Below, in pieces: positions 10,231 to 27,867 of a DNA stretch of 64,000 nucleotides. The stretch's first letter is position 1, and each line of letters starts with the position of its first letter. Position numbers and translations under genes: made by a program. Source of the DNA: a virus; IMG/VR virus record IMGVR_UViG_3300033153_006968, positions 21,610-85,609 of that record, one strand, 5' to 3'. The notes under the pieces were generated by a model. That model saw nothing but the letters and a program-made list of their open reading frames with translations. It did no database searches and had not been told where the DNA came from.

Positions 10231-10650
10231 CTAAAGTAGGCCCGGGGAAAAAATCCTATAGGCACCTACAGCTACTTCATTCAGGTAAGGCGTCTTTCTA
10301 AGAAAGCTGTGATCTTCGTCCCCTATCACTTCAATTATAGCATTTCTTGGACTAAGTTTTCCTCTCCAATATATTCTAACAACTAAACCTTCTCTGAGTG
10401 CACCCCAAAGAAGATAAATCTCAGACAACGGAGTGGCCAGTGGCAAAAACGCATTAGAGATCTCGTTCCCTACCTTTCCGTCTGCCTCTAATTTTTTAAC
10501 CTTTACCTGACCACTGTCATAGTTAACGGCACTTATGATCCCATAGGTAACTCTGTCCTGCTTGTCGGAAGGCTGCTGCGCTTGACGATTTGTTTCGTGC
10601 AAGGCTTGCTGTAGTTCGTTTTTAGGTGCGGAAGAATTATATCCTGGCAT
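10231..10650 (-). CDS. Putative baseplate spike OB-fold protein (gpV/gp5 N-terminal-like)
   Basis: 'YGIISAVNYDSGQVKVK...AFLPLATP...LREGLVVRIYWRG' fits the gpV/Gp5 OB-fold pattern; follows the hub gene. Confidence 0.55.
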   Translation of the reverse strand: MPGYNSSAPKNELQQALHETNRQAQQPSDKQDRVTYGIISAVNYDSGQVKVKKLEADGKVGNEISNAFLPLATPLSEIYLLWGALREGLVVRIYWRGKLSPRNAIIEVIGDEDHSFLRKTPYLNEVAVGAYRIFSPGLL

Positions 10651-13600
10651 TATTCTGGTGGACTAATTATATCTCCTAATAAATAATTACTAATATCTCC
10701 TTGGGTATGACCGGCCCAACTATTAGGATGAAGTTTATCATAAACGTCATTAAGATACAATGGAGCAGTCCTTTCAGCTTCTTTGATCCATTTGCCAATC
10801 CTCTGAATAAAGCTGCCTCCAGTATGTCTGTTGGGAAGCCCTCCTATCATAGGTTTGTTTCCAAGAACTAACGGAGAGAATCTAAAAGGATGAGCAAGCT
10901 GAGTTCTCGTTATTAACTTTCTGAATATGAATATCCCGAGCATTCCGGTAATAGAGGACGCCCCTTTAACGCCTATAGCATTCTCGGAAGAATTAAAAAA
11001 CATCCTGGCGATTGGGGCAAATGGAGCACTAAGCGGAGCTAACACACCCTGCGTTACTGCTGCGCCAACAGTGTCAATACTTCCCACTCCTACAGAAGCT
11101 TTAACTATAGAACCAAGACTCTGAAGACCTATTGATTTGAGACCCTGTTCTACTATCAATCCCATCGCATCTGCCGTAGCCATTGTAGAATGTTGATTAA
11201 CGTGAACCATAAGATCAGGAGTTATCTCTGTTATAAATCCGTTCTTCTGACTAAATCGATGTATAACTTGCTCTACTTCTATCGGTCCATACATGTCGTT
11301 ATATTCGTCAAAAATATAGACAACATCAAAAGGACGGATTTTAGGATTGCCAACAGAAACAATAGAGCCTGTATACGCTTCCTTTAAAGAGTTGAATAAA
11401 AGAGAAACGCAATAATTTTTTGCCATCTCATAACCTACACAATTAGGATACTGGGCAAATAGCTCTCTAACTTCTTCATCTGGAATAGCCGCATCTGCTT
11501 TCAGAGTGAAGGCCTTAGCATCATCAAAATTTAGTCGTGCTGTATCGTTGTCTACATAAGGAGAATCATCGCTATACTGTAGAGTTACGGTATTAAAAGT
11601 ATTATGTGCCGAAGAAGAAATAGAATTGTGGAGAATATGCATAGAGCTTGTCAGAACATGATATGAACGAAATGGTTTTATAAAGCCCTTATCTAAGGCA
11701 TAAATCTTTGCAATCTTCTTTACCCAAGCTTCCTGTTCTTTCTTGTCATTGGTCGTAACGGCATTCTCTAATTCTTCTGACGGGAGAGAGTCATTACCGA
11801 CCATTCTCTCCTGTGCTCTTTGTTGTTCCTCTCCTTCAACTCCGTCTTTAACAATTTTCCTCATCTGCTCCATTACGTCTTCTTCAGAATGATCTGGATC
11901 TCTAGCGAAATAAAGCTGATCTGGCAATCCAAAAAACATTGTCATCCTAGGGCCATGTTTGCCTTGATAAGGAACTGGGCAAGCGATATAACTTGGATGT
12001 CTAAGAGTCATCTCTTGAAATACGTCCCATACAGTTGTGTGATATAGAGAATAAGTAGGAGTCGTTGAAAAATTGCCAAGAAATCTATCCATTAGACCAA
12101 GAACATTGCTTCCCTGCGGCGCAAAAATATTATCGTCTTGCGGCGAAGGTTGGAATTTCCACCGATTCTTAAGCAGACTGTATCCGGCATTCTTTCCAAA
12201 TTCACCACCTTCCCATCTACCGAAATGTACAACCTCTGGTGAAGCAAGAAGCTGTTCAAGCATTGCAAAGGTTCTGCCATCTCCATCAAACCACCCACCG
12301 AACTCTTTTACTTCCCCATGGATCGACTGAATAAGTTCTATGGCAAAGCTCTGACAAACAATCTCTACCAAATCGGTACTCTCAGAAAATTGCACATCTG
12401 TTATTACGCCATTAAAAACAACGTCTAGCTCATCTGGATTATTGCTGTATCCCAAATTAAGTTGTACCTGTATGCCAGGCTGCAACATAAGAGAAGCGAT
12501 CGGATTTTCTTTAGCTGTGTTCGTTGCAGAGCCTCCTTTTTCTACTGCAATATTTCCCTCTTCGTCAAGATTTTTAGTTGGATCAGCGGCAAAAGAAAAC
12601 TTCCTATTACTAAGAACTCCAGATATATTTGTCATTCTAATTCTGCACAAATCTGCAGCAATCTTTCTACTTCTAATTACTTCTATCTCTTGAATCGCAC
12701 TATATGAAAAGAAATCATCAAAGGCAAATTTCTTTCTTTCGCCCAAATCGCTTTCAATAAAATAAAGCTTGAAGGTAGGATAGGCGCGTTTCATGCCATA
12801 CCCTTGTCCGCTCTTCAATTCTTTTTCGAATTGTTCAATACTCTTCGTAAATAGGCTTTCGTTATTTGGATCAAGGCCAGCTATAGGTCCTTGAGATTTA
12901 GTTGTTTCTCCTTTGAGAATCGGTAAAGGATCTGTATGTTGACCATCTTTTTCCATTTGAAAATGGAGATGAGGTCCTGTTGAATAACCAGTAGTGCCCA
13001 TATGTCCTATTAATTTGCCGACTTCTACCGTAAGAGCCCTATTAACGCCATCGTCAGAAATTCCTAAATCGGCAGAACGATATAAAATACTAGCCCAACC
13101 CTGAGTAATTTCGTCCCACATTAGATGAGAATATTTAGTAATCCATCCGTTAGCATGCTGTATTACTAAAGTCACTCCCTTTGCATCTGCTCTCGCTTGC
13201 TGCGCGATTTCTAAAGTTGGATGAAATATAACTTTGCCATAATCACTTATTTTTATAATCCGTCCAGAGGCAGATGCCAATATCTCACTACCTCTACTGT
13301 CTCTCCAATTATCTGCAGCAAGATCTAGTCCTTTATGAAAGGAAGGCTTCTTTTCGCCCTGTTTTTTTGCAACAGGATCGTCTCTCTTCCCATACCTAGA
13401 TGTAATCCTACGGACAGTAGAACGGGTGGGCCACTTAAAACTAGGATCCTTGCCAGAATCATGATCGGCAGGATTCTCATATTCACTAGGTGGCAAAAAA
13501 GACAATACTTCATTCGTTTCAAATCTATGCTGTACGGCAGCCGCATTAGAAGGAGGAGATACATTACTCTCTATTGAATTTCTATAATTGGTGTTAAGGT

Positions 13601-16472
13601 TGTTGTCTTGATTATCTCCATCGCCGGGCTGGATAGATACAAGCTCAATAGGCTTTTCAGCCTCATAAGAAGCACAGCCTAAAGAGCCAACCAGCTGATT
13701 AGGAGCCATAGCGTTATCTTTGAAAGAGCTATCTTTCTTTGAGATATAATCGTCTACCGCTCCGTTATCTGCTTCGCCATCTTTTTCGTCTGCTTTAGAT
13801 TGTCTTTCTATTAAATCTTTGTTCTCTCTCGAAAACATGCCCGTCAATAAACTAGATTTCTCTAGACCGAGTATATCCTTCTCGTACACATTCTTAAACC
13901 AGTCACCCTCTACTTGCTCTTGTGTCTCTTTTGCTTCAATAATGGCATCCTTTGCATCGTTCATAGCTTCGATAGGAATGAGATTATCTACAACATCATT
14001 TTGCGGCTCAAAGAAATAAAAATCAGGATCAATGAAAGCAGCTATTCCAACGTTCTTTAGAGCTAGTCCAGATTCCTCATACAAGCCATTCAATTTGTTA
14101 TATGCGTTCTTAGACAGATCGTCAGAGCTTGCCTGAAGCGTAGAAAGAACATCCCTAATGGGAAAGTCAGGATAATTATCTGCGCCGGCAGAAAGACCAG
14201 TCTTATTCATTGACTCTCTAACCTCTTTGAACTGGGGAAGATCTCGTAAACTCTTAGTATTTAAAATTTTATCAAGGAATTTCTGCGTAAAAACTGCCCA
14301 TTCCTGAAAGCTATTATTGATAAGAGCATTTAATCTAATGTTGTCTTCAGTTCCAATCCCTTCTACGATATCTTCAACGCTTGTATCTCGAAATTGTCCC
14401 ATCCCTATACTTCCAAGAAGAGCTTGTTCTTCTTGTCCTTGATTATATGCGTCTATAATTTTTTCGCTTTTAACCTGAGTATCTCCAAGGTTATGTTCTG
14501 ATACATAAGATTTTCCATAAAAATCACTTCTAAATGTATTAATATATCCTTGTCCTTTCGCTCTTCTAATAGAGTTGTATATTTCTGTTAAATCTTCGTT
14601 AACTCTCTCTATACTTATTAAATCTTTATTCTTTAAAAGTAAAAGATCTGCCACTATTTCTTTAGCTAAAACTGAATTATTCCAAGGTCCAATTAAATTT
14701 CCTAAATTGAGAACTAATTTTTTAACAAAATTCGCAAGATTTTCCGCATACTCGGAACAAAGTTTTGCAAACCGTGCATTTCTACCGTTGTTTTCAGGAC
14801 CAGAATATTCATAATATTTTAAGGGAGAAAGAGCAACTCCAAATGCTTGCTTCCCAGATTCCTGAATTTCGATCTTTTCATGAGTTGTTTTATAGTTTAG
14901 ACCTAAAAAGAAATGTTCTGTAGCTCCTTGTATTTCATATAGTTTATCTGGATAAAATTTAATATTTTTTTCTATAATCTCTGCAATCTTTGACCTTAAA
15001 TCCTGACCGCTTGTAAAAGATCCACTAGCTTGAAAATTCTCCCTAGTGTACTCTGTCAAAGGATTATCTACGAGAACAAGGGCACCCTGATAACTGCCAG
15101 GTTCTCCCTCTATGTTCTCAACAACGAAACTCTCTGCAAGGAACCCTTCGAGTCCACACATGTTAACTATGTCATTTTCAATCTTGATGTTTCTGTGTCC
15201 GGCGGGAATATTCCTATATTTTAAAGATTGATCTTCCACCGCAGAATAGAAAGAAGAAAGCTTCTCTATAGCGCTTTCCATAGTTGTAGCAAAAGAAATA
15301 ACTACTTCAGCGTCTATACTTCCTATATGTTGAAAAGATGGGAATGGATGTCCCATTAGAGGAAGCATTGCAAGGATATTCTCAAAAGAAATAGATATAC
15401 TTTGTATGACTAATCCTGTGTCGTTGAAGTCTAAACTTACCCCGCGAGAAAGAAGAATGGTATCTTCCTTATCATATTTGTCTTTACCGTCTGGATTCTT
15501 CTGAAGAGAAGGAGAACCTTTGAAAGAAACGGCACTACCATTTATTTGAACAACGGTCCACTCAGTCATATATTCGTATTTAGAACTAGATAGTTGATTA
15601 GTTAAAACGTTCCTAAATTTGCTCAATACTTGAGTCGCAGGCATATCGTCAAGCATAGAGGTCATATCACCGACTAATTCTCTAACGTTTGTCTCTGCCC
15701 ATCTCTTGTCGGCGACTTCTTTAGAGAGCATATCTCGAATGCCTTTTATATCCTGATTCTCTTTCCCTTCAGCGCCAGTCATTAAAGAGGCTAGATTAGA
15801 GCGAATACTCTTAATAATCTCAATTTCTTTTTCTAGTTGTTCGTATTTTCTTATTGTAATAGAACCAAATTGTTTGAAACGAGCGGTCAATCCAGTCTGC
15901 AAACTTCCGACATCTCTGTATCCGAAATCGCTAGTGCGAAACGCCCTTCTCTGCTCCGCATGATAAAGCATTTTCCAAGCCTTAGAATCTGCTGGATTGA
16001 AAACTGGCTTAGGTTCCCATATATGAGATTTGAATGCAAAGTCTCTTGTGAATGGGAAATAATTAAACCAACAAAAATGAAAATTAACAGTAATTACATT
16101 TGTGTCTTGATTGTCTTTAACGATCTCTATCTGTTTAACTGCTATAGCCATATTCTGAATATTGTTACTTCCAAGAATAGACTTTCTAAGGAATTGATTT
16201 TCGATAAAACAGAAAGGAGTTACGCGGATTTGAGAGATAATATTGCGCAACTTAGAAAGCCCATTTGTTAGATCTCCTATTTTATTCCCTGGAGATGGAT
16301 TGTCTGTGAATTCCGCAGTTACATAGATGTCAAGAGTGGAGTAGCCAGACTTAGATTTGACAGATGAACGAGTCCTAAGCGTCTGCCACTTGTGATTAAA
16401 TGAACGTCTATCTATTCTTATATTTTTGGGAGGAATATCAAGAATTATGTCATTGATCTGGAATGAACTCAT
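10650..16472 (-). CDS. Baseplate hub protein with internal M23 family peptidoglycan endopeptidase
   Basis: 1940 aa. M23 motifs 'WP...ITSRYGKR..P...FHKGLDLA', 'TKYSHL', 'GHMGTTGYSTGPHLHFQ...DPL' (~12915-13440). C-terminal hub-like 'LQPGIQVQLNLGY...VFNGVIT' and 'GNPKIRPFDVVYIFD...IEVEQVIHRFS'. Confidence 0.85.
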   Translation of the reverse strand: MSSFQINDIILDIPPKNIRIDRRSFNHKWQTLRTRSSVKSKSGYSTLDIYVTAEFTDNPSPGNKIGDLTNGLSKLRNIISQIRVTPFCFIENQFLRKSILGSNNIQNMAIAVKQIEIVKDNQDTNVITVNFHFCWFNYFPFTRDFAFKSHIWEPKPVFNPADSKAWKMLYHAEQRRAFRTSDFGYRDVGSLQTGLTARFKQFGSITIRKYEQLEKEIEIIKSIRSNLASLMTGAEGKENQDIKGIRDMLSKEVADKRWAETNVRELVGDMTSMLDDMPATQVLSKFRNVLTNQLSSSKYEYMTEWTVVQINGSAVSFKGSPSLQKNPDGKDKYDKEDTILLSRGVSLDFNDTGLVIQSISISFENILAMLPLMGHPFPSFQHIGSIDAEVVISFATTMESAIEKLSSFYSAVEDQSLKYRNIPAGHRNIKIENDIVNMCGLEGFLAESFVVENIEGEPGSYQGALVLVDNPLTEYTRENFQASGSFTSGQDLRSKIAEIIEKNIKFYPDKLYEIQGATEHFFLGLNYKTTHEKIEIQESGKQAFGVALSPLKYYEYSGPENNGRNARFAKLCSEYAENLANFVKKLVLNLGNLIGPWNNSVLAKEIVADLLLLKNKDLISIERVNEDLTEIYNSIRRAKGQGYINTFRSDFYGKSYVSEHNLGDTQVKSEKIIDAYNQGQEEQALLGSIGMGQFRDTSVEDIVEGIGTEDNIRLNALINNSFQEWAVFTQKFLDKILNTKSLRDLPQFKEVRESMNKTGLSAGADNYPDFPIRDVLSTLQASSDDLSKNAYNKLNGLYEESGLALKNVGIAAFIDPDFYFFEPQNDVVDNLIPIEAMNDAKDAIIEAKETQEQVEGDWFKNVYEKDILGLEKSSLLTGMFSRENKDLIERQSKADEKDGEADNGAVDDYISKKDSSFKDNAMAPNQLVGSLGCASYEAEKPIELVSIQPGDGDNQDNNLNTNYRNSIESNVSPPSNAAAVQHRFETNEVLSFLPPSEYENPADHDSGKDPSFKWPTRSTVRRITSRYGKRDDPVAKKQGEKKPSFHKGLDLAADNWRDSRGSEILASASGRIIKISDYGKVIFHPTLEIAQQARADAKGVTLVIQHANGWITKYSHLMWDEITQGWASILYRSADLGISDDGVNRALTVEVGKLIGHMGTTGYSTGPHLHFQMEKDGQHTDPLPILKGETTKSQGPIAGLDPNNESLFTKSIEQFEKELKSGQGYGMKRAYPTFKLYFIESDLGERKKFAFDDFFSYSAIQEIEVIRSRKIAADLCRIRMTNISGVLSNRKFSFAADPTKNLDEEGNIAVEKGGSATNTAKENPIASLMLQPGIQVQLNLGYSNNPDELDVVFNGVITDVQFSESTDLVEIVCQSFAIELIQSIHGEVKEFGGWFDGDGRTFAMLEQLLASPEVVHFGRWEGGEFGKNAGYSLLKNRWKFQPSPQDDNIFAPQGSNVLGLMDRFLGNFSTTPTYSLYHTTVWDVFQEMTLRHPSYIACPVPYQGKHGPRMTMFFGLPDQLYFARDPDHSEEDVMEQMRKIVKDGVEGEEQQRAQERMVGNDSLPSEELENAVTTNDKKEQEAWVKKIAKIYALDKGFIKPFRSYHVLTSSMHILHNSISSSAHNTFNTVTLQYSDDSPYVDNDTARLNFDDAKAFTLKADAAIPDEEVRELFAQYPNCVGYEMAKNYCVSLLFNSLKEAYTGSIVSVGNPKIRPFDVVYIFDEYNDMYGPIEVEQVIHRFSQKNGFITEITPDLMVHVNQHSTMATADAMGLIVEQGLKSIGLQSLGSIVKASVGVGSIDTVGAAVTQGVLAPLSAPFAPIARMFFNSSENAIGVKGASSITGMLGIFIFRKLITRTQLAHPFRFSPLVLGNKPMIGGLPNRHTGGSFIQRIGKWIKEAERTAPLYLNDVYDKLHPNSWAGHTQGDISNYLLGDIISPPE

Positions 16473-19400
16473 CTACCTCAAAACTCTATTTGCTATTGTT
16501 GACGGACTTAAGCTATTACTATTATCTCTTACATTTACGTTAATTCTATCAGCTCCTGTAGCAGCTCCTAACCTACTTGTAAAATCTCTACTCATTTGCT
16601 TAGTCGTTACGCGCGCAGAAACATTCGTTGCTTGGCCAGGGTTAACGCGAACTGTAGGAGTATACATTCTTGACGGAGGAGAAGGACTGCCTACTGCTTG
16701 GCCAGGAGGCATTACGTCTTCTGGTTTCATTTGAGAACCAGCCTTATTCACCCTCATCATAGGTCTAGAATCTGGTATCATCACTGAGCCAGGACCTACA
16801 AGGCTGTCTGGCTTACTTAATGCTGCGGCTATAGCAAGAGAACCAGCAAAGCCGAAACCAACAGCTTTCTTATGTTTCAGAACTCCCAATCCCGCCGAAG
16901 CAAGAAAATTCTTCGCAGTCATGGCAGCTTTAGAAACATTAGCTCCCAACCCAGTTGCTACACCTCCTGTATAGGCTAGATATTTTCCGAGTTGCTCAAC
17001 GGTAGGAGCCATTCTGCCCTGCGCCATACGGGCCATTTTGTCCATTCCTGTAGCTTCAGAGATTTCGAGAGCAGATATAATATCCTGTGATGCCTGCCTC
17101 ACATTAGGAGCAGGAAGAACGTTGCTCATTTTTATTCCATAATGTTTTTCAACATCTTTTATTATTGCAGATCCTGGATCTATTGTCACTCCTTCAGTTA
17201 GATATCTCCCCGCAAGAGATCCTTCGTCCATAGCTCCCATAATGGTGCTTTCAAGCCTAGCGGCATTTTTATCCCGTAAACTTGACTGAAGAGTTTTGAA
17301 ATAGTTTTCCATCTGATATTCAAGAACTTCTCTTTGGCCATGGTGTTTACCTGCAATAGCCATCTGTTCTCCGTGCTGAAGTACGAACAAAGCATCTGCC
17401 GTCCTTTGTTTAGATAGTCCCGATTCTACTATCGCCTTTCTTGCCATCGAGATGTCGGTAGATACCAAAGGAGTCCACTTCTGAGCAGTACCTAGTTTCA
17501 TAGCGTCGGCAACCATTCCTTGTCGAGTCGTCAACTCTCCTAAAGCGACCGTTCCAGATCTTGCTTTAATGATCTGAGTCCTAATAGAGTGTTGTACCTG
17601 CGCTTGAGTATATATGTTATCTTGATATAAAAGTTGCTCTCCAATTTTTTCGCCAATCTTAGGCTTCATGAAAGCTGCGGCGATAATATCTGCATCAAAG
17701 TCGGCCAACATACCTGCTGCAGGAGATAGAGTAAGGGCCGCTTCTTTCCCTCCAGATTTGAGAGAGGTGGCAAAAGAAGGTAAAGATATAATCGGTTCAG
17801 TAATTCCTTCTATCGCTCTGATATTTACCCCCTGAATAGATCCAGCGGCCGTAAAAGGGTGTCTCATAAGTATCCCGGGAGACCCAGATCCTAAAAATTG
17901 CTTCTCTATCTTTGTAACTTCAGCCCTAGAATAAACTCCGGTATCTACCAACTCTTCAAGCATTTGCCTTCCATGCCCTATCGGGATCCCGACCTCTGCA
18001 GCGTGTGCCGGAGTAAATCCCTTTACCTTTGTCAACCCGGTAAAAAATCTTGAACCAAGAATCTTTCTCTTCTTGCCGAATAAAGCTCCTGCGCCTTCGC
18101 CATATGGCGCCTGTTGTTTTTGAATTCCTCCTATGAAGTCTCTAATAGCTACATCTGCATCAAGTAAGTCAGCGCTCTTCTCGGCAGATAGTTGTCTTGC
18201 TAGAGTATGATAAATACCAGCTACATCTCCTTTTACAGTATCTCCTGCAGCGGTCATATAAGGCTTTAATATATCTCCGCCGGGAATAAAAACTTCTCTC
18301 TTCCCAGCCTTTAGCCATCCACCTTCTTTACCGCCTGCCTCTAACCAAGCTTGAAATCCTGCTGAGTCATATCCTTTAACTCCAATATCCCACATACGAG
18401 CACCCTTCCCAGGAGAAGCCATGCCTTCAACAGATTGTAACGTTTTGGTCAGGGCATCATATGTAGCGGTAGCTCTTGGGTCCGTCATGGCAGCTCTCCG
18501 AGCAAAGTCCTCTGCAATCTCTTCTCCAAGTGCTCCATGTTGTCCCGCGCGCAAAAGATCAAATGCTCTAGATTCTATAGATCCTAACTTTCCAGCACCA
18601 GTTCTTTCCATTGTCTCGCCAAACATAGACTGAGATATACCCAGAGATAATCCCTCAGTTCCAAGCAAAGCGTCAAATTGATGCACTGAAATACCTGCTT
18701 CTTTCATAGCAAATCGCTTCACGCCTTTGATAAAACCTTCACCTTCACCATATTTTCCAGCTATATAAGAGGCAAACACATTTGGATTTCGCATAAACGA
18801 AGCGAGTTTACCGTTGCGACGAATGGCATCTTCCGTTCTCGTCCCTTCGATCATATCCCAAAGACCAGTGATAATCTGGTTGTTTCTGTTGGCCATCTTT
18901 AATTTATTAGCAGAAGCTATCTGCAAAGGTTCTCCAGTCGCCATAGCGTCCAAAAATGGCCGACGTTGCTCCGGAGACATTCCTGCAGTTAAATCCCATA
19001 CCGACTGTCTAACATCTGCCGGATCTGCAAATTTCATCATCGCTTTGAGACCACCAAAAGCACCAAAGATCTTTTGAGCTATACCAGGTCTATGAGTCTG
19101 TAAATAATAAAGAGATTTTAAATCTCCCTTACCGACAGTAGAAAACCCTTCAACTCCCAACAACTTCATATTGCTTTCATAAGCAACGCCTTTGCCTTCC
19201 GGCGTCCAACCAAGCATCTCACCTGGTGTAAAAGTTGCGCCTTTAGCGATACGCTCTTCTACGCCTTCAACAAATGTCTTAAAATGTACTGGATCAGGCA
19301 TTCTAAATGCTTCAAGCATTCTTCTTGTCTGAGGAGTTCCTGTAATAATACTTTCGCCTTCTCCCAGCCCTAGCTTCTGAAGTTGGGTGGCGTATTTTTC

Positions 19401-20744
19401 TGGATCTACATAGAGAGTTCTTATATGTGGTGCAGCATAGGCTCCAAAATCTTTACGCCAACCTTGTGTTTCAAATATGGACCATTTAGATCCCTGATTC
19501 ATAAACTCTTCAACGGCAGCAGGAGTCATTCTCCATTCTCTAGCTGCTTGCATGGGCCTATTACCAAAAGAGGCGACTTCTGGAGTTGGAGACCAAGCTC
19601 TTGGATCAAGAGTGGATAGCCTCCATTTGGATAGATTCTTAGGACTCGTAGAAGGATATAGTCCACCTTGTTCCATAATACGAGCCCCTTCTCGACTCGT
19701 AGGTTCTCTAAATATATCTCCTTCAAGAATACGAACGTCTACAGCTTGTCCGCGAATATTTAATTCACTCTTTCTAGCAGCGTTTTTTATACTAGATGGA
19801 AGATTAGGGACATGCGGCATAGCAAATATATCTCTCTCATATACTGATTTCAATACTTTTTGAATATCAAAGGCGGATTTATATTCGCCCGCAGCAAGAC
19901 TTGGTAATATCGTCTGTTCTATATCTTTAAGATAATACTGAGTCCTCGTCATCTTCTCTAACAGATTGCCACGAGGATCAAAAATATGTGCTCCAACAGC
20001 TACCCTCTTCGAAGACTGGGTAAGGCCTTCTACTAATGCTCCTTTCTGAGACATCGGAATAGTCACGTCAAATTTATGTTTCCCATATCTGAAAGGCATC
20101 TTGTATGTCCCAAAACCTTCTTGTTGCCAACCTTTACGAGTATAATATTTGACCTCTCCAGCAGCAGTAACGCCTGTATCTTTAGTAAACTCTTTATGAA
20201 ATGCCTGTAATTCAGCAGGTAATTCATTGATGGCTTTATTCATTGCGCGCGGAAAAGAAAGATTTTCTACTCTCTCAACTGTAGGCATCTTGCCGATTAC
20301 CTCCATATGTTTACCAAGTAGTCCTACATTCTTTTTAAACTTTCGATAAGCAGACGCCATAAATAGAGAGTTATTACGCTGAAGTGTTTGCTTTATAGAT
20401 GTGTAGACTTTGTTGGCAGGCATAGTTTTTATATCGCCGGCGAATGAAAGAACTTCCCCTGCTAATGGATCTGTAGATTGTATAGCTTCTATCCATGCCC
20501 TTCTAGCTATCTCTGCACCTTCTTTAGTCCTGAAAACACCAGCCATCTCATTCATTAAGCTCATATCTATAGCCGAAACAGCTTCTCTTGGCGCGGCAGA
20601 TACAGCTTTATTCAGGAATGAAGAGCCCATACTTGGAGGAACAAAAGCACCAGCCTTAGCTGCTTGATGAATAGCGAAACCAGAACCAGCAACAAAAGGA
20701 GATGCTACTAATAAATCTTTCAAAAAGTTCCTATCGTCAGGCAC
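16473..20744 (-). CDS. Putative single-chain two-barrel virion RNA polymerase encoded in the tail (tape-measure) locus
   Basis: 1423 aa, GTG start overlapping the upstream stop. 'LMRHP' (17856-17864) precedes 'MLADFDADII' (17688-17705), echoing beta' NRxP...NADFDGD. 'QKIFGAFGGLKAM' (19044-19073) echoes the beta GDK...GxKG lysine pair. Hydrophobic helices near both termini. Confidence 0.62.
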   Translation of the reverse strand: MPDDRNFLKDLLVASPFVAGSGFAIHQAAKAGAFVPPSMGSSFLNKAVSAAPREAVSAIDMSLMNEMAGVFRTKEGAEIARRAWIEAIQSTDPLAGEVLSFAGDIKTMPANKVYTSIKQTLQRNNSLFMASAYRKFKKNVGLLGKHMEVIGKMPTVERVENLSFPRAMNKAINELPAELQAFHKEFTKDTGVTAAGEVKYYTRKGWQQEGFGTYKMPFRYGKHKFDVTIPMSQKGALVEGLTQSSKRVAVGAHIFDPRGNLLEKMTRTQYYLKDIEQTILPSLAAGEYKSAFDIQKVLKSVYERDIFAMPHVPNLPSSIKNAARKSELNIRGQAVDVRILEGDIFREPTSREGARIMEQGGLYPSTSPKNLSKWRLSTLDPRAWSPTPEVASFGNRPMQAAREWRMTPAAVEEFMNQGSKWSIFETQGWRKDFGAYAAPHIRTLYVDPEKYATQLQKLGLGEGESIITGTPQTRRMLEAFRMPDPVHFKTFVEGVEERIAKGATFTPGEMLGWTPEGKGVAYESNMKLLGVEGFSTVGKGDLKSLYYLQTHRPGIAQKIFGAFGGLKAMMKFADPADVRQSVWDLTAGMSPEQRRPFLDAMATGEPLQIASANKLKMANRNNQIITGLWDMIEGTRTEDAIRRNGKLASFMRNPNVFASYIAGKYGEGEGFIKGVKRFAMKEAGISVHQFDALLGTEGLSLGISQSMFGETMERTGAGKLGSIESRAFDLLRAGQHGALGEEIAEDFARRAAMTDPRATATYDALTKTLQSVEGMASPGKGARMWDIGVKGYDSAGFQAWLEAGGKEGGWLKAGKREVFIPGGDILKPYMTAAGDTVKGDVAGIYHTLARQLSAEKSADLLDADVAIRDFIGGIQKQQAPYGEGAGALFGKKRKILGSRFFTGLTKVKGFTPAHAAEVGIPIGHGRQMLEELVDTGVYSRAEVTKIEKQFLGSGSPGILMRHPFTAAGSIQGVNIRAIEGITEPIISLPSFATSLKSGGKEAALTLSPAAGMLADFDADIIAAAFMKPKIGEKIGEQLLYQDNIYTQAQVQHSIRTQIIKARSGTVALGELTTRQGMVADAMKLGTAQKWTPLVSTDISMARKAIVESGLSKQRTADALFVLQHGEQMAIAGKHHGQREVLEYQMENYFKTLQSSLRDKNAARLESTIMGAMDEGSLAGRYLTEGVTIDPGSAIIKDVEKHYGIKMSNVLPAPNVRQASQDIISALEISEATGMDKMARMAQGRMAPTVEQLGKYLAYTGGVATGLGANVSKAAMTAKNFLASAGLGVLKHKKAVGFGFAGSLAIAAALSKPDSLVGPGSVMIPDSRPMMRVNKAGSQMKPEDVMPPGQAVGSPSPPSRMYTPTVRVNPGQATNVSARVTTKQMSRDFTSRLGAATGADRINVNVRDNSNSLSPSTIANRVLR

Positions 20745-23700
20745 TTAACACCTTCCTTATGGCTTCAACAGCCTCATCGGTCTTATCTTCTTCAACTTCT
20801 ATATCTACGGACGTTCCACTTCCAGATCGAGAAGTAATGAACGAACTACTATTCTCCATCTTATCAACAAAAAACAATTCGTTAAGTCTACCCTGTACAT
20901 CTTCTCTAGAGAGCTTTTCAGACTCAAGCAGAGGTTGGATAGCCTCTTCGTCTATAAACTCTTTGTAGGGCAATTCTGCGCCTCTGGAGGGCCATAAATT
21001 AAGCTCGATAGGATCTCCTCCAATCTCCTGGACAAGTTTGAGTTTAACATCTTCTAAATCAACTGAAGGATGAAAGCCCGCCCAATCCGCCCCGGGAATA
21101 GAAGGAACCTGAGAAAGTAACTTGGTTCTTCTATACCAATCAGGGTAACTCTCTCCTTTAAGCTTTGTAGCTACATATTCTGCAAATAGATCTTTGCTTG
21201 TAGGGAGTCCTTCTGTTCGAGCCTCGTCGTAAACTTGATCTATCTCTTCTTCTGCTTCTGCCTCTTGCTCTTCTGTGAGTACTCCTTCTTTGATTGCGGT
21301 TTTGAGATCTTGAGCATGAACCATCTTCCACCGCGCAAGATAAAGAGACTTTTCATTCTCTGGCACCATCTCTAAGATGCGCGCCCTCTCTTCATATGAC
21401 TCGGCACCTTCAAATGCTTGAAAGTAATCTCTTTCTCTTCTCGGGAGTGAGCGATAAATAGATGTATAATTTCTAGTATAAGGACTAACTCCGAATAACG
21501 TTTCGTTCTTCTTTGCTTCGAATTCTTTGACCGCAGCAGTATCATCAGCCATCTGTGCCATATTAGATAACCTTGCATATTTGGTATACTTGAGAATATC
21601 AAAATATTCCTCTATATTTCTGAGATGTTCGGAATGTTCAGGAACGCCTTCGGCACCAAGGGCTCGTCCCATTAATCTTCCGAATGGTTTAGCAAAGTGT
21701 TCAAGAGGGTGTGTCCAGAAAGCACTTGGAGTTCCGTAGAGAACATCCCTCTCATATGCTTCGATAGCAGTTCTAGTATGAACTAGTTTGCCGCCAGGAG
21801 ATACAGGAGTCAACTGATCAAAAGCAGTCTCTGCGTTGTGAGCAAGTAGCTCCCAATAGCCACCAAATAATCTATCGGATAAAGAAGTCTCCTTTGCTCC
21901 AGAAGCTTTCCATTCATTCATCGCAATCATCAAGTCAGAACTTTCCTGCCGCGCGGGAGAAAAAATATCGCCCATTGGTGACAGATGTTTATATTCTTGA
22001 AATTCTATTCTCTGTTTTTTGGATTTAACCTGCTCAAGAGTAGTCTGATATATATCTTCCTCTTGTTCGGACCAATCTCCCCTTGTTCTCTTCCCTCTTA
22101 TCTTAGAATAAGTTCTCTTATATTTGTCTGTATATGGAGCCACATCGGCTAATATTTTATATTGATGAATAAGGGGATAGTCCGCAGGGTCTACGCCTTC
22201 TAGCTCTGGATGGAGAGCAGCATATCCAACACCAGGAAGACGTATTTCTCCCATTTGTACTTTGGTAAATGGATCGCCATATTGAATATTAGGTCCTCTT
22301 TCTCCAGGCCCTGGCAACCATTCAGGCATTAAATTTCTAATAGGATTCTGAAGTTCAATCTGTCTTCTTCTATGAGGATACAAACGCCTCCAGGCTTCAC
22401 TTAGTCCTGCAAGGCCGCCTAACTCCCTATCCCAATATTCTCTTTCGTAACTAGCTATCCTGCTTGCGCTTTCCAATTGAGACATCTGGTCAAACCAATC
22501 CTGACTACCTGTGAGTTTTTCCTTTATTGCCGAAGAAATAAAACCAGTCAAACCAGGTAATTCAGTTCCTAGTCTATATATCTGCTCACCAGCCATTTCG
22601 GCTAATCCTGGAGCAATAGGAACTCCACCAGGCTCTTGTCCTATCTCTGTAGCTACCCTTCCTCCAAACCCAGGAGCAGGAAGTTTGACTCCTCTATCAG
22701 AGAAAAACTCATCAATGTGCATATATAATTGTGGCTTAATCCATCTGCCTACAGTCTGAGATAATAAAGGTCCAATAAACGGTACATCTTCAAAAGGTAA
22801 ACCAGTAGTCGGATAGGGTCTATCCTCATAATGTTCTCTTTCTAGTTCGTAAGTAAATTGACTCTTCCACCATTTAGATACTGGACTTAATTCTTCATCT
22901 TCTCCCCAGATAGATTTTTCTTTCCCGCGCAACCTAAGCATTGCATAAGTATGTGGACGATAATATCGAATACGGGTACCCTCGTACGGCTGACGGCCAA
23001 GTTCCCACCAACGACTTTTACGTATTGGAACTTCCTGTTCTCCTGAGTAGATACGTCTCAATTCTTCTGGAGATTGTTCCGGAATTAACGCACCAGGAAT
23101 AAAGGGGGCGATGAGAGCCAAGCCAGCAAGAGCACCTGCTCCAATTAGCGCTTTGCTAGGAGTCATTCTGCTCAGTAATTTATTGGTTCCAGCATTCTCA
23201 AAGAATTTCCCCATCTTGGCCCAAGACTCAAACTGCCCATCCAATCTTTGTCGCGCCAAGGAAGAAGATATTCCTTCAGATATTTGAAGGGCGGCCATCT
23301 TCCAAGTCTTATATCCGTAGATTCCAACGCCAATACCCATAGCTCCCATAGCTGGGAAGGCTGCAAGTTTCAGTAAGTCAGTGCTGCCTGGAGCCACTTC
23401 TTTTTGTTTCCGTACAAATTCTTGAAGTCCGGTCACTTCAGCAATCTCTGCCGCTTTGACATGCGCCGCTACAGGAATGGTTGCCAATCCATAGGTAAGG
23501 CCATGTTCGAACAGGGTTCCCTCAGTTGCTTCGCTGGTACGCGCTGCCCAATCAAGAGTTCCATACCCAAGAGCAAGAGCGCCTAATCCAAGTCCATACT
23601 TTCCAGATAGCCTAGCTAACATCTCAAGACCACCCGCCTCTTTAACTGCAAGATACTTGCCAACAGAGGGCATAAAACGACCAATACCGGGTATCTTACT

Positions 23701-24492
23701 AGGAGAGTCGGCAGTCATTCTGAGTAATCTATTAAACCTCTGTATTTGCTCAGTCCCAAGAGCGCCTAACTTTCTACCCCAGTGTTCTGTTAGAGTTTTT
23801 CCGCCTATTATCTGGGCAGCATATCCTTCACCAAGCTGAGGGTTAACTATAATTTGTTTGCCCCACTTGAATTCAGGAGAAGCAAAGAAACGATCAAAAG
23901 GAATGGATCCTTTTAATCCAAGTCTACGCGCATAAGCTCCGCCGATATGGGATCTTTCTCCAACTCCAGGAGACGTAATAGCTGAAGCATATTTAAGGGC
24001 TACATCCCCGCCGCCCCAATAAAGGCTACCTCCTTTGAGAGATACTCCTTCCTGAAGCAATCTCTGGTATGTAAAGGAACCAGGCTTCTCACCTATAATA
24101 CGGGCAAGATATTCGGCGTATTGCTTATTCTTACCTAATAATTCTGGACCAACAACTAATTCGGCTTTTCTTACAGCTGTTTCAAATGGGCTAAATATAT
24201 GACTTAATTGGAATGTTCTAAACGCTTTAACGGGAGAGTATTCTTCAAGTGCTCTCAAGCCAGCGACATAGTAATCCCATACATGCTTGCCCTTTCTTCC
24301 GGCAGGCATATACCCTAACGCCCCAATTGCTCCAAGAGTGGCAGCAAAACCAGCTACGCCACCAACTTGTGATCCGATTGGTCGGGTTAATTTTTGGGGT
24401 TCAGTTGTCCAGTAATCAGGTTGGCTGGTTGGATCTGTTAAAGATGGGCCGTAATAAGACCGTGCAGAATTGAATACAAATTGATTAGCCAC
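20737..24492 (-). CDS. Tape-measure-like / ejected virion protein with several predicted membrane helices
   Basis: 1251 aa directly after the tail chaperones. Gly/Ala-rich hydrophobic stretches (VAGFAATLGAIGALGY; YGLGLGALALGYG; FPAMGAMGIGVGIYGY; LIGAGALAGLALIAPFI). Aromatic block 'EVPIRKSRWWELGRQPYEGTRIRYYRP'. Confidence 0.55.
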   Translation of the reverse strand: MANQFVFNSARSYYGPSLTDPTSQPDYWTTEPQKLTRPIGSQVGGVAGFAATLGAIGALGYMPAGRKGKHVWDYYVAGLRALEEYSPVKAFRTFQLSHIFSPFETAVRKAELVVGPELLGKNKQYAEYLARIIGEKPGSFTYQRLLQEGVSLKGGSLYWGGGDVALKYASAITSPGVGERSHIGGAYARRLGLKGSIPFDRFFASPEFKWGKQIIVNPQLGEGYAAQIIGGKTLTEHWGRKLGALGTEQIQRFNRLLRMTADSPSKIPGIGRFMPSVGKYLAVKEAGGLEMLARLSGKYGLGLGALALGYGTLDWAARTSEATEGTLFEHGLTYGLATIPVAAHVKAAEIAEVTGLQEFVRKQKEVAPGSTDLLKLAAFPAMGAMGIGVGIYGYKTWKMAALQISEGISSSLARQRLDGQFESWAKMGKFFENAGTNKLLSRMTPSKALIGAGALAGLALIAPFIPGALIPEQSPEELRRIYSGEQEVPIRKSRWWELGRQPYEGTRIRYYRPHTYAMLRLRGKEKSIWGEDEELSPVSKWWKSQFTYELEREHYEDRPYPTTGLPFEDVPFIGPLLSQTVGRWIKPQLYMHIDEFFSDRGVKLPAPGFGGRVATEIGQEPGGVPIAPGLAEMAGEQIYRLGTELPGLTGFISSAIKEKLTGSQDWFDQMSQLESASRIASYEREYWDRELGGLAGLSEAWRRLYPHRRRQIELQNPIRNLMPEWLPGPGERGPNIQYGDPFTKVQMGEIRLPGVGYAALHPELEGVDPADYPLIHQYKILADVAPYTDKYKRTYSKIRGKRTRGDWSEQEEDIYQTTLEQVKSKKQRIEFQEYKHLSPMGDIFSPARQESSDLMIAMNEWKASGAKETSLSDRLFGGYWELLAHNAETAFDQLTPVSPGGKLVHTRTAIEAYERDVLYGTPSAFWTHPLEHFAKPFGRLMGRALGAEGVPEHSEHLRNIEEYFDILKYTKYARLSNMAQMADDTAAVKEFEAKKNETLFGVSPYTRNYTSIYRSLPRRERDYFQAFEGAESYEERARILEMVPENEKSLYLARWKMVHAQDLKTAIKEGVLTEEQEAEAEEEIDQVYDEARTEGLPTSKDLFAEYVATKLKGESYPDWYRRTKLLSQVPSIPGADWAGFHPSVDLEDVKLKLVQEIGGDPIELNLWPSRGAELPYKEFIDEEAIQPLLESEKLSREDVQGRLNELFFVDKMENSSSFITSRSGSGTSVDIEVEEDKTDEAVEAIRKVLSA

Positions 24493-27794: not shown

Positions 27795-27806
27795 TCACAT
27801 CTCTCC

Positions 27807-27846: not shown

Positions 27847-27867
27847 ATATTCTATCACAAAGCTCTA

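What the first reader, a model, noticed from the sequence alone, without database searches (positions are those of the whole stretch)
16473..20744. Candidate single-chain two-barrel RNA polymerase encoded inside the contractile-tail operon, at the tape-measure locus
Seen: the 1423-aa protein has, in order, 'FGNRPMQ', 'GLGEGESIIT', 'AQKIFGAFGGLKAMM' (Lys ~558 and ~567), 'KILGSRF', 'GILMRHPF' (~961) and 'AGMLADFDADIIAA' (~1014-1019). Known: two-barrel RNAPs use a beta-type barrel with two conserved lysines (GDK...GxKG) and a beta'-type barrel with RxP followed by the Mg-binding DxDGD. Single-chain phage versions exist (SPbeta YonO; crAss-like phi14:2 virion RNAP with a DFDID variant; Thermus P23-45, whose virion RNAP is fused to the tape measure). 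Inference: this is a divergent virion RNAP with a DFDAD variant in a myovirus. It sits between a TMP-like gene (8-nt overlap) and the hub, and has hydrophobic terminal helices and a Pro-rich linker before a TMP-like C-terminus. It may be loaded in the tail lumen and injected to transcribe early genes or pull in DNA.
Basis: partly seen in the sequence, partly recalled or inferred. Interest (0 to 1): 0.92.

Follow-up and report, generated by a model that had tools for sequence, protein, structure and literature searches.

The report
RNA polymerase in myovirus tail module
A large unannotated gene among the contractile-tail genes of an uncultured phage of about 190 kb encodes a one-chain, very diverged relative of the cell's RNA polymerase, which the phage probably carries in its particle and injects to start its own transcription.

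Summary
The ORF is real: window 16473-20744, minus strand, 1423 aa. All six quoted motifs are at the stated positions. No Pfam, PHROG or PDB sequence search recognises it. It heads a family of at least 150 clusters at 50% identity. In 112 aligned members D1015, D1017, D1019 and P963 are 112/112, R961 110, K558 109, K567 101 plus 6 Arg. A template-free AlphaFold2 model (pLDDT 86.8, pTM 0.87) matches RNA polymerases above all else in an unbiased scan of 48,161 PDB chains. Residues 175-720 resemble beta/Rpb2, 773-1266 resemble beta'/Rpb1, and 897-1027 form a double-psi barrel. The gene sits between a homolog of 0305phi8-36 gp145 and the baseplate hub in 7 of 7 related loci. Its last ~150 residues match the C-terminus of 0305phi8-36 gp146, the 'hypothetical tape measure' recorded in virions. 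The RNA polymerase fold and active site are well supported. Packaging and injection are inferred, not shown. AI notes of this scan report the same kind of gene on other DNA, in at least 21 genomes. I found no paper describing it.

The parts
16473..20744 (-). Whole ORF, 1423 aa plus stop, GTG start: single-chain two-barrel RNA polymerase candidate
   Evidence: The N-terminus is conserved from residue 2 in homologs.
20737..20760 (-). Translational coupling: Shine-Dalgarno-like AAGGAAGG, GTG start, and 8-nt overlap (GTGCCTGA) with the stop of the upstream gene
20580..20744 (-). Residues 1-55: low-confidence N-terminus with a hydrophobic segment at 7-25
   Evidence: pLDDT 36-56. Kyte-Doolittle window.
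20223..20579 (-). Residues 56-174: helical N-terminal domain
   Evidence: helices 62-150, pLDDT mostly 80-95. An archaeal RNAP clamp entry, 3qqc_A, aligns weakly over 50..884 (Z 6.8, 129 aligned).
18585..20222 (-). Residues 175-720: beta/Rpb2-like module including the second barrel
   Evidence: VIA Z 13.1-14.4, 406-499 aligned, to second-largest RNAP subunits. AR9 and phiKZ nvRNAP chain C: Z 13.4 and 12.9, rmsd 4.4 and 4.3 over 279-280 residues.
19044..19073 (-). K558 ... K567: the two basic residues of the beta-like barrel
   Evidence: K558 109/112; K567 101/112 plus 6 Arg
16947..18428 (-). Residues 773-1266: beta'/Rpb1-like module
   Evidence: Foldseek: 56 PDB hits (model 1) and 320 (model 2) at E<=1e-3; all rows shown are RNAP chains. 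VIA Z 9.6-12.9, 258-365 aligned.
17655..18062 (-). Residues 895-1030: catalytic double-psi beta-barrel (DPBB-A)
   Evidence: Isolated DPBB domains (CDC48-N, VAT-N, designed DPBB) align at Z 9.2-10.9, rmsd 2.0-2.6, 84-97 residues; again with model 2.
17856..17864 (-). R961-H-P963 (R-x-P motif)
   Evidence: R 110/112, P 112/112
17688..17702 (-). D1015-F-D1017-A-D1019: candidate Mg-binding triad
   Evidence: Each Asp 112/112. The fourth position is Ala 73, Gly 26, other 13 of 112.
17424..17528 (-). Residues 1073-1107: 35-residue helix, candidate bridge helix (inferred)
   Evidence: DSSP on the model. It lies inside the range aligned to largest subunits. No residue-level superposition was available.
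17322..17411 (-). Residues 1112-1141: helices with invariant E1126 and K1133 and near-invariant H1134, candidate trigger-loop region (inferred)
   Evidence: E1126 112/112, K1133 112/112, H1134 102/112
16818..16991 (-). Residues 1252-1309: two Gly/Ala-rich helices, low confidence; start of the C-terminal tail module
16593..16817 (-). Residues 1310-1384: disordered Pro-rich linker
   Evidence: pLDDT 35-50; 16% Pro
16476..16592 (-). Residues 1385-1423: conserved C-terminal end (N-x-N-x-R-D ... motif). With 1268-1384 it forms the module shared with 0305phi8-36 gp146, WH1 gp095 and KLEB27-3 gp034
   Evidence: Family HMM against gp146: 22.0 bits, E 1.9e-9 at Z=1. hhalign E 4.6e-4. The genome search E 5e-6. 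WH1 26.7 bits and KLEB27-3 11.1 bits. Mapping to residues 1268-1415.
20737..24492 (-). Upstream partner gene, 1251 aa: homolog of 0305phi8-36 gp145 with three strongly hydrophobic segments (43-64, 373-391, 443-472)
   Evidence: always adjacent in relatives
10650..16472 (-). Downstream partner gene, 1940 aa: baseplate hub homolog with M23 peptidase

Best explanation
The gene encodes a single-polypeptide two-barrel nucleotide polymerase, a fused beta-beta' type enzyme, most likely a Mg-dependent DNA-directed RNA polymerase. SHOWN by computation: residues about 175-720 are predicted to fold like the second-largest subunit of cellular RNA polymerases, and about 773-1266 like the largest subunit. 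Residues 895-1030 form a double-psi barrel that carries R961-x-P963 and D1015-x-D1017-x-D1019. The other barrel carries K558 and K567. All of these are conserved through a family of at least 150 sequence clusters. The last ~150 residues (Gly/Ala-rich helices, Pro-rich disordered linker, conserved end) are a separate module. The same module ends the proteins that occupy this gene slot, directly upstream of the hub gene, in cultured 0305phi8-36-like large myoviruses. INFERRED: the protein is made late together with the tail. It is built into the particle through that C-terminal module, at the hub or in or near the tube lumen. It leaves the particle on contraction, largely unfolded, perhaps helped by the hydrophobic upstream partner. 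It then transcribes the first genes of the entering DNA without the host polymerase. My odds: polymerase fold 0.95; catalytically active RNA polymerase 0.8; virion-delivered 0.6; true tape-measure or tail-lumen location 0.35.
For: Conservation in 112 aligned members (17-59% identity to the query): D1015, D1017, D1019 and P963 112/112; R961 110; K558 109; K567 101 plus 6 R; E1126 and K1133 112; H1134 102. [quoted passage not shown] Structure: a template-free AF2 model of residues 1-1200 has pLDDT 86.8 and pTM 0.87; a second model of 730-1423 is confident to about residue 1259. Foldseek against PDB gives 56 and 320 hits at E<=1e-3, and every row shown is an RNAP chain. In the unbiased VIA scan of 48,161 chains the top rows are AR9 and phiKZ nvRNAP (Z 13.4, 12.9), human Pol I largest subunit (12.9) and P74 gp62 (12.2; 351 aligned over model 323-1160). 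They are followed by RDR2 (11.5), QDE-1 (11.4; 435 aligned over 247-1166), P23-45 gp96 (9.6 and 9.0) and phi14:2 gp66 (6.5; 495 aligned). Context: the gene lies in a sheath-tube-chaperone-...-hub-baseplate operon. It has an 8-nt overlap upstream and zero spacer downstream. The order is the same in 7 of 7 related IMG/VR loci, and there is one copy in each of 5 of 5 relatives' records, two of them complete at 191 and 189 kb. The C-terminal module matches 0305phi8-36 gp146, whose GenBank note says 'identified as virion protein by mass spectrometry'. Same-slot proteins of cultured phages carry DxDxD: WH1 gp095 (annotated 'virion structural protein') DHDGD, KLEB27-3 gp034 DYDGD, ME3_36 DHDQD. The BFVD models of both halves of a 1603-aa ME3 protein match my model (E 4e-8 and 1.1e-4). 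Precedent: the P23-45 tape-measure-fused virion RNAP.
Against: There is no direct evidence that this protein or any family member is in virions; the mass-spectrometry note concerns gp146, which shares only the C-terminal module and has no DxDxD. All fold evidence rests on predicted models, and no residue-level superposition could be inspected. No sequence method links the protein to any known RNAP: Pfam, PHROG and PDB phmmer/hmmsearch find nothing, and hhalign against P23-45 gp96 and gp64 gives probabilities of 0.1-0.2%. The fourth catalytic carboxylate of the beta-like barrel is not cleanly conserved (E462: E 63 plus D 21 of 112; E464: E 55 of 112). The fourth motif position is Ala in 73 of 112 rather than the usual Gly (compare). 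A folded core of about 110 kDa cannot sit in a tail-tube lumen unless it is unfolded. The ~150-residue tail module is far too short to measure a long tail. I found no repeated promoter-like motif and no second phage RNAP in the complete relative G001.
Confidence: 0.6

Rival explanations
1. It is an active two-barrel RNA polymerase that travels in the particle as capsid cargo or an ejection protein, as in crAss-like and N4-like phages. It is not a tail-lumen or tape-measure component, and its place in the tail operon reflects only late co-expression.
For: phi14:2 gp66 is also encoded next to tail genes and is a particle component (passages). The folded core is too large for a tube lumen. The upstream gp145-like protein or another protein could be the real length ruler.
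Against: The C-terminal module is shared with the slot protein called tape measure in 0305phi8-36. The position directly before the hub gene is strictly kept.
Confidence: 0.15
2. It is an active RNA polymerase that is not packaged, a non-virion enzyme for middle or late transcription that merely sits in the late operon.
For: There is no proteomic evidence for this family. No second phage RNAP was found in the complete relative G001, so a single enzyme might serve inside the cell.
Against: A polymerase needed to express late genes would not itself be expected in the late structural operon, translationally coupled to virion proteins. The gp146-like tail module and hydrophobic ends have no obvious use for a cytoplasmic enzyme. 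The WH1 record calls the slot protein a virion structural protein.
Confidence: 0.1
3. It has the two-barrel fold but another chemistry or template: an RNA-dependent RNA polymerase like QDE-1/RDR, a primer-making enzyme for replication, or a DNA polymerase like archaeal PolD.
For: QDE-1 and RDR2 align about as well as the DNA-dependent enzymes (Z 11.4-11.5, 435-438 aligned). Template and product cannot be read from a fold.
Against: The highest-ranking rows in both searches are DNA-dependent RNAPs. The phage has its own Pol III alpha and DnaG-type primase (in relative G001). A dsDNA phage has no known need for an RdRP.
Confidence: 0.07
4. It is a structural tail or ejection protein that descends from a polymerase but no longer polymerises.
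For: 0305phi8-36 gp146, in the same slot with the same C-terminal module, has no DxDxD. The fourth carboxylate is loosely conserved. The protein evolves faster than its neighbours: 24-40% identity against 33-59% for them in the same loci.
Against: The three Asp, P963, E1126 and K1133 are invariant in 112 of 112 sequences at 17-59% overall identity. R961, K558, K567 and H1134 are near-invariant. This pattern is what purifying selection on an active site produces.
Confidence: 0.06

Closest known systems
Thermus phage P23-45 gp96 (also P74-26, G20c, TSP4): virion two-barrel RNAP fused to the N-terminus of the tape measure protein (PMC10770324; PDB 8h2m, 8h2n)
   Same: Both are single-chain two-barrel RNAPs encoded at the tape-measure locus. 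In both, the polymerase is N-terminal and the tail-associated part C-terminal. Both have a DxDxD triad and no detectable sequence similarity to other RNAPs. There is a structural match at Z 9.0-9.6, 307-311 aligned.
   Different: P23-45 is a siphovirus; this phage is a contractile-tailed phage of about 190 kb. gp96 has 5,002 aa with a long tape and a metallopeptidase. Here the protein has 1423 aa with only a ~150-aa tail module, and the M23 peptidase is in the next gene. hhalign finds no sequence relation. gp96 is described as clamp-less and flat. My model aligns more fully and with higher Z to cellular-type subunits, and weakly to a clamp entry. P23-45 has a second, non-virion RNAP; none was found here.
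P23-45 gp64 / P74-26 gp62 non-virion RNAP (PDB 8f5m)
   Same: This is the best single-chain structural match: Z 12.2, rmsd 4.2, 351 aligned across both barrels (model 323-1160).
   Different: It has about 600 aa, no tail module and is not in a tail operon. hhalign probability is 0.15%.
phi14:2 gp66, virion RNAP of crAss-like phages (PDB 6vr4)
   Same: Both are candidate or proven virion-delivered single-chain two-barrel RNAPs with a non-Gly fourth motif position (DFDID there, DFDAD here). Both are encoded beside tail genes.
   Different: The phage is a podovirus and the protein has 2,180 aa with about 1,600 residues of unique domains. The structural match is weak (Z 6.5, 495 aligned). There is no sequence relation.
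YonO / QDE-1 / RDR family (Pfam PF05183), including 0305phi8-36 orf99
   Same: Both are single chains with both barrels. QDE-1 and RDR2 align at Z 11.4-11.5 over 435-438 residues.
   Different: There is no Pfam hit at E<=0.1. 0305phi8-36 keeps its YonO-like gene (orf99) on the other genome arm, not in the tail operon.
Multisubunit phage RNAPs of phiKZ and AR9 (split beta and beta' subunits)
   Same: These give the highest Z for the beta-like half (13.4 and 12.9, rmsd 4.3-4.4). The beta'-like pieces also match. In phiKZ-like phages one RNAP set is virion-packaged.
   Different: Those enzymes have four or five separate polypeptides packaged in the head. Here there is one chain, encoded in the tail operon, with a tail module.
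0305phi8-36 gp146, 'hypothetical tape measure protein' (virion protein by mass spectrometry per the GenBank note)
   Same: It occupies the same gene slot, after the gp145 homolog and before the hub. Its last ~150 residues are homologous.
   Different: It has 2537 aa, no DxDxD and no detectable similarity outside the C-terminus.

Membership tests
Two-barrel (double-psi beta-barrel) RNA polymerase superfamily | A beta'-type DPBB domain | tested here: met
   Model residues 897-1027 align to isolated DPBB domains at Z 9.2-10.9, rmsd 2.0-2.6, and again with model 2. Predicted structure only.
Two-barrel (double-psi beta-barrel) RNA polymerase superfamily | A second, beta-type barrel in a beta/Rpb2-like module | tested here: met
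   Residues 175-720 align to second-largest subunits at Z 13.1-14.4. Residues 380-719 align to AR9 and phiKZ chain C at rmsd 4.3-4.4. The barrel itself was not searched in isolation.
Two-barrel (double-psi beta-barrel) RNA polymerase superfamily | DxDxD metal-binding triad | tested here: met
   D1015, D1017 and D1019 are each 112/112. The fourth position is Ala 73, Gly 26, other 13.
Two-barrel (double-psi beta-barrel) RNA polymerase superfamily | Invariant R-x-P upstream of the triad (Rpb1 R446/P448; PMC2919709) | tested here: met
   R961 110/112, P963 112/112, 52 residues before D1015.
Two-barrel (double-psi beta-barrel) RNA polymerase superfamily | Two basic residues in the beta-type barrel (Rpb2 K979/K987) | tested here: met
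   K558 109/112; K567 101 K plus 6 R of 112. The spacing is 9 here and 6 in most members.
Two-barrel (double-psi beta-barrel) RNA polymerase superfamily | Fourth catalytic Asp in the beta-type module (Rpb2 D837) | tested here: inconclusive
   The candidate is the 'GEGE' strand: E462 is E/D in 84 of 112 and E464 is E in 55 of 112. The assignment is by recalled motif resemblance and the alignment is noisy there.
Two-barrel (double-psi beta-barrel) RNA polymerase superfamily | Bridge helix and trigger loop after the catalytic barrel | tested here: inconclusive
   A long helix (1073-1107) and following helices with invariant E1126/K1133 and H1134 (102/112) lie inside the range aligned to largest subunits. 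No residue-level superposition was available.
Two-barrel (double-psi beta-barrel) RNA polymerase superfamily | Template-dependent NTP polymerisation | not testable with these tools
   Needs biochemistry.
P23-45 gp96-type tape-measure-fused virion RNAP | Sequence homology to gp96 | tested here: not met
   hhalign of the 53-sequence profile against gp96 residues 1-1200: probability 0.08%. PDB sequence searches list no gp96 chain.
P23-45 gp96-type tape-measure-fused virion RNAP | Polymerase N-terminal to a tail-tape part, in one polypeptide at the TMP locus | tested here: inconclusive
   The polymerase is N-terminal. The C-terminal ~150 aa match the end of a putative TMP. There is no long tape, and which gene measures the tail is unknown.
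P23-45 gp96-type tape-measure-fused virion RNAP | Presence in virions and transcription of pre-early genes | not testable with these tools
   Only indirect evidence: GenBank notes on same-slot proteins of cultured relatives.
YonO / RdRP family (Pfam PF05183) | Match to the family model | tested here: not met
   No Pfam family at E<=0.1.
Tail tape measure protein | Match to a TMP family model | tested here: not met
   No Pfam or PHROG family matches the target.
Tail tape measure protein | Gene position between tail chaperones and hub | tested here: met
   It lies directly upstream of the hub gene, one gene removed from the chaperone-like genes, as for 0305phi8-36 orf146.
Tail tape measure protein | Long extended helical protein whose length scales with tail length | tested here: not met
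   Residues 56-1259 are predicted as a compact multi-domain enzyme. Length is nearly constant (mostly 1430-1560 aa) across the family. Tail lengths are unknown.

The most novel reading that the evidence does not exclude
In a whole lineage of large contractile-tailed phages the tape-measure slot has been taken over by a complete beta-beta' fused RNA polymerase. The lineage includes 0305phi8-36-like phages and the cultured Acinetobacter phage ME3 and Bacillus phages WH1, Edson and KLEB27-3. On this reading the enzyme is anchored by its C-terminal module in the hub and threaded out through the contracted tube. It stays at the membrane exit, held by its own and its partner's hydrophobic segments. 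There it transcribes, and thereby helps pull in, the leading end of a ~190-kb genome. That would make entry and first gene expression independent of the host polymerase and of cytoplasmic defences.
Probability: 0.3. Interest if true: 0.9.

Novelty: new variant of a known kind. Interest (0 to 1): 0.8.

Why it matters
Virion-delivered two-barrel RNA polymerases have been shown experimentally in only a few phage groups: phiKZ/AR9-like, crAss-like and P23-45-like. A polymerase joined to tail-tape parts is known only from the Thermus siphoviruses. This finding adds a large unannotated family of at least 150 clusters at 50% identity, in phages of about 190 kb with contractile tails. Its members are called 'hypothetical', 'structural' or 'minor tail' proteins in records. 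If they are active and injected, three things follow. Early transcription in this lineage is host-independent. Annotation pipelines miss a key enzyme. And a bulky enzyme must somehow leave through a contractile tail, a question that becomes testable in cultured Bacillus and Acinetobacter phages. The enzyme is also one of the more complete single-chain copies of the beta/beta' core, which is useful for studying how minimal such a polymerase can be.

Tried and rejected
Sequence routes that found no RNAP. Pfam and PHROGs give no family for the target. PDB phmmer and profile hmmsearch give only chance-level rows. tblastn against 50,697 phage records gives none at E<=1e-3. hhalign against P23-45 gp96(1-1200) and gp64 gives probabilities of 0.08-0.15%, and against Moorella MTATph1 CDS0027 and 0305phi8-36 gp145 nothing.

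Link to ME3_36 by sequence is weak. hhalign gives probability 6% (single sequence) and 21%, E 0.001 (profile against the 7-sequence A6), only over the Lys-pair barrel. The family HMM gives 12.8 bits. The genome search found nothing in ME3. I accept ME3_36 as a probable relative only because of the BFVD structural hits, the collinear K..K / R-x-P / DxDxD motifs and the same gene slot.

Second polymerase. In the complete relative G001 I kept 270 non-overlapping ORFs. Among those of >=350 aa, only the target's ortholog combines DxDxD with an unknown fold; the other DxDxD carriers are structural proteins, terminase or Pol III alpha. Pfam on 19 large non-structural ORFs gave no RNAP. The 759-aa unknown ORF is a ribonucleotide reductase by tblastn. 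Small or very diverged polymerases would have been missed.

Promoters. An exact 11-mer count in 64 intergenic stretches of G001 gave no word seen more than twice. This is a crude test.

A second ME3 protein, UniProt A0A172Q0S6 (798 aa), matches my model in BFVD (E 3.9e-6, TMt 0.51). The only 798-aa ORF I found in ME3 (224453-226849, minus strand) has no acidic triad, no HMM or hhalign signal and no homolog in G001 or the window. I could not confirm that this ORF is that UniProt entry, and I dropped the lead.

Other blanks. PolD-type DNA polymerases do not appear among the 50 rows of either VIA-wide list; that is no exclusion. ESM Atlas for the upstream 1251-aa protein gave a best score of 0.82, unnamed clusters. 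Prophage or host search in genome contigs: 35 pattern matches, none confirmed. Sequencing runs: none was listed, and no RNA holder was listed. Cluster look-up of 10 family members found no names except one 'hypothetical protein'.

Literature. Searches found no paper describing an RNAP in the tape-measure slot of a myovirus. So did passages of PMC7824862, PMC13282480, PMC5000817 and PMC2147016. This holds only for that library. KLEB27-3 and WH1 returned no papers.

Rows dropped. Of the 150 hits, 111 went into alignment A2: all those of >=1380 aa plus P0002. The 39 shorter ones were left out as fragments.

Full report
OBSERVATION. The window has an open frame at 16473..20744 on the minus strand (GTG start, 1423 aa). 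The start is preceded by AAGGAAGG and overlaps the stop of the upstream gene (20737..24492) by 8 nt. The next gene (10650..16472) begins at the base after the stop codon. All genes in the window run on the minus strand. A bare D.D.D occurs in 6 other ORFs of >=100 aa in the same contig, so the motif by itself proves nothing.

WHAT SEQUENCE SEARCHES SAY. Pfam and PHROGs give no family. PDB sequence searches with the protein or a profile give only chance rows. tblastn against 50,697 phage records gives nothing. The word-indexed protein search found three relatives (58%, 26%, 26% identity). The exhaustive HMMER search with residues 330-1130 found 150 cluster representatives at E<=1e-3: 128 at <=1e-10 and 62 at <=1e-30. 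Most are 1430-1560 aa long.

CONSERVATION. I aligned the query (residues 1-1200) with 111 of the 150 hits; the 39 fragments under 1380 aa were left out. Counts out of 112 are as follows. D1015, D1017 and D1019 are 112 each. P963 is 112 and R961 110. K558 is 109, and K567 is 101 plus 6 Arg. E724 is 109 E plus 3 D, and R726 is 108. E1126 and K1133 are 112, and H1134 is 102. The fourth position of the triad is Ala in 73, Gly in 26 and other residues in 13. [quoted passage not shown] Seven have clear, conserved counterparts here. The eighth is uncertain (E462 is E/D in 84 of 112; E464 is E in 55). My equating of 'RGKxxGSRF', 'GSxEPRxF' and 'GEGE' with named beta'/beta motifs is recalled, not tested.

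STRUCTURE. AlphaFold2 without templates, on a 53-row alignment, gave a model of residues 1-1200 with mean pLDDT 86.8 and pTM 0.87. Foldseek against 350,542 PDB chains gave 56 hits at E<=1e-3, and every row shown is a chain of an RNA polymerase complex. That the D/J chains are beta' is my reading of the chain letters. A VIA re-alignment of Foldseek's list put model residues 175-720 on second-largest subunits (bacterial, archaeal, Pol I/II, ASFV) at Z 13.1-14.4 with 406-499 aligned residues.

The independent VIA scan of 48,161 representative chains ranked RNA polymerases first:
- AR9 nvRNAP chain C: Z 13.4, rmsd 4.4, 279 aligned, model 380-719.
- phiKZ nvRNAP chain C: Z 12.9.
- Human Pol I largest subunit: Z 12.9, 330 aligned, model 773-1185.
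- P74 gp62: Z 12.2, rmsd 4.2, 351 aligned, model 323-1160.
- ZmRDR2: Z 11.5. QDE-1: Z 11.4, 435 aligned, model 247-1166.
- P23-45 gp96: Z 9.6 and 9.0. phi14:2 gp66: Z 6.5, 495 aligned.

Isolated double-psi barrels (CDC48-N, VAT-N, designed DPBBs) align to 897-1027 at Z 9.2-10.9 and rmsd 2.0-2.6. A second model of residues 730-1423 (pLDDT 79.1) is confident to about residue 1259. It gave 320 Foldseek hits at E<=1e-3, all shown rows again RNAP chains. In VIA its nine best rows are largest subunits (Z 9.6-11.9, 263-365 aligned, model 44-537, which is residues 773-1266). So the protein is a beta-like module followed by a beta'-like module in one chain. These are predictions, and I could not inspect coordinates.

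THE C-TERMINAL MODULE. After residue ~1259 the model shows two low-confidence Gly/Ala-rich helices, a disordered Pro-rich stretch (16% Pro against 4.8% overall) and short terminal helices. A family HMM matches the end of 0305phi8-36 gp146 (HMM 1306-1454 to gp146 2377-2519; 22.0 bits, E 1.9e-9 for one sequence). hhalign agrees (E 4.6e-4, probability 33%), as does genome search (E 5e-6). The matched part corresponds to residues 1268-1415 here. The same module ends WH1 gp095 (26.7 bits) and KLEB27-3 gp034 (11.1 bits).

CONTEXT. The window belongs to an 85,609-bp IMG/VR record that CheckV rates 45% complete. Around the gene lie, in order of transcription:
- terminase and capsid genes, then the sheath (28536-30449);
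- three tube paralogs and two small chaperone-like genes;
- the 1251-aa gene, the target, and a 1940-aa hub homolog (M23 peptidase; BLASTP E 8e-47 to ME3 'baseplate hub protein');
- baseplate wedge genes.

Seven related IMG/VR loci keep this order; L004 and L006 give identical numbers. In all 7 the target's homolog follows the 1251-aa homolog. In 6 the hub follows, and L005 ends at the contig edge. The target is the fastest-evolving of the three genes: 24-40% identity against 39-59% for the upstream gene and 34-58% for the hub. Five of five relatives' records hold one copy each, and two of them are complete with terminal repeats (191,113 and 188,653 bp).

The sheath's nearest cultured relatives are Acinetobacter phage ME3, Moorella phage MTATph1, and Bacillus phages 0305phi8-36, WH1, Edson and KLEB27-3. 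BLASTP shows that the window's sheath, tube paralogs, one chaperone-like gene and the 1251-aa gene are homologs of 0305phi8-36 gp139-143 and gp145. The target takes the place of gp146, whose record reads 'hypothetical tape measure protein ... identified as virion protein by mass spectrometry'. [quoted passage not shown] They noted that only its last 60 residues align with relatives (PMC2147016, passages).

CULTURED LOOK-ALIKES. gp146 itself has no DxDxD, and 0305phi8-36 carries a separate YonO-like orf99. In contrast, the same-slot proteins of three cultured phages each carry one canonical or near-canonical triad:
- ME3_36, 1603 aa, 'hypothetical': GGDHDQD.
- WH1 gp095, 2515 aa, 'virion structural protein': ADHDGD.
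- KLEB27-3 gp034, 2434 aa, 'structural protein': ADYDGD.

In a 7-sequence ME3_36 alignment K632/K639, R1174-E-P1176 and D1217/D1219/D1221 are invariant. BFVD holds models of a 1603-aa ME3 protein in two pieces, and both match my model (E 4e-8 and 1.1e-4, probability 1.00). The best BFVD hit is a metagenomic 'Minor tail protein' (E 7.5e-14, TMq 0.46). The sequence-level link to ME3_36 is weak.

REST OF THE GENOME. In the complete relative G001 I found Pol III alpha, a DnaG-type primase with an intein, an intein-bearing terminase, RNA ligase, AAA ATPases, TnpB and glycosyltransferases. I found no second RNAP and no repeated promoter-like word. Both tests are shallow.

MECHANISM. Shown: a conserved two-barrel polymerase core with a conserved candidate active site, fused to a tail module, in a fixed, translationally coupled place among tail genes. 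Inferred from P23-45 and crAss-like phages: the enzyme is packaged, ejected and transcribes the first genes. Open questions are whether it lies in the tube, at the hub or in the head; whether it must unfold to leave; what measures the tail; and what transcribes later genes.

NOVELTY. Virion-delivered two-barrel RNAPs and a tape-measure fusion are known, so the kind is known. A family of this size, in contractile-tailed phages, with a fuller beta/beta' core and only a short tail module, was not described in any paper I could search. Supplements were closed. AI notes of this scan report the same kind of gene in at least 21 other genomes. They are unchecked leads and did not change my scores.

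Noticed in passing
window 20737-24492 (-): The upstream 1251-aa protein has three strongly hydrophobic Gly/Ala-rich segments (43-64, 373-391, 443-472) followed by a Trp/Tyr/Arg-rich region. It is a homolog of 0305phi8-36 gp145, a virion protein. Its length varies from 1131 to 2542 aa among relatives, while the polymerase stays near 1430-1560 aa. It may be a membrane-inserting ejection partner or the real length ruler.
   Followed up: partly
window 25906-28521 (-): Three consecutive genes all hit phrog_9206, which PHROGs labels 'major head protein'. They are homologs of the 0305phi8-36 tail tube gp140 and its paralogs gp141/gp142, so the PHROG label looks wrong for this lineage.
   Followed up: partly
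L010:31971-39584 (0305phi8-36 gp146) and PMC2147016: The same-slot protein of 0305phi8-36 shares only the C-terminal module and has no DxDxD, while that phage has a separate YonO-like RNAP (orf99) on the other arm. Whether gp146 is a decayed polymerase or an unrelated insert is unknown.
   Followed up: partly
L037:29953-37500 (WH1 gp095); L036:30820-38124 (KLEB27-3 gp034): The giant 'structural proteins' directly upstream of the hub genes of these cultured Bacillus jumbo phages carry canonical DHDGD and DYDGD motifs near residues 1996 and 1933. They end in the same C-terminal module as the window's protein. They are candidate test systems.
   Followed up: partly
BFVD A0A172Q0S6 (Acinetobacter phage ME3, 798 aa): A second uncharacterised ME3 protein matches the polymerase model (E 3.9e-6, TMt 0.51, 870 columns). 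The only 798-aa ORF I found in ME3 (224453-226849, minus strand) has no acidic triad. Unresolved.
   Followed up: partly
L017:1224-4394 (-), L022:7423-13289 (-), L018:14408-15529 (-) in relative G001: The 191-kb relative has inteins with LAGLIDADG domains in its terminase, its DnaG-type primase and a neighbouring gene, plus a TnpB (IS605 OrfB) gene. The window's own terminase (56278-58116, 612 aa) has no intein.
   Followed up: no
window 10650-16472 (-): The 1940-aa hub protein combines a gp27-like hub part with an M23 peptidase (residues ~1035-1260). Its best PHROG hits are giant 'endolysin' families. In P23-45 the metallopeptidase sits inside the polymerase-tape-measure fusion, whereas here it is in the next gene.
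   Followed up: no
BFVD A0A8S5SD80_1: The best viral structural match is a metagenomic protein annotated 'Minor tail protein [Siphoviridae sp. ctnpt50]' (E 7.5e-14, TMq 0.46, 1453 columns). Members of this polymerase kind are therefore already in UniProt under tail-protein names.
   Followed up: no
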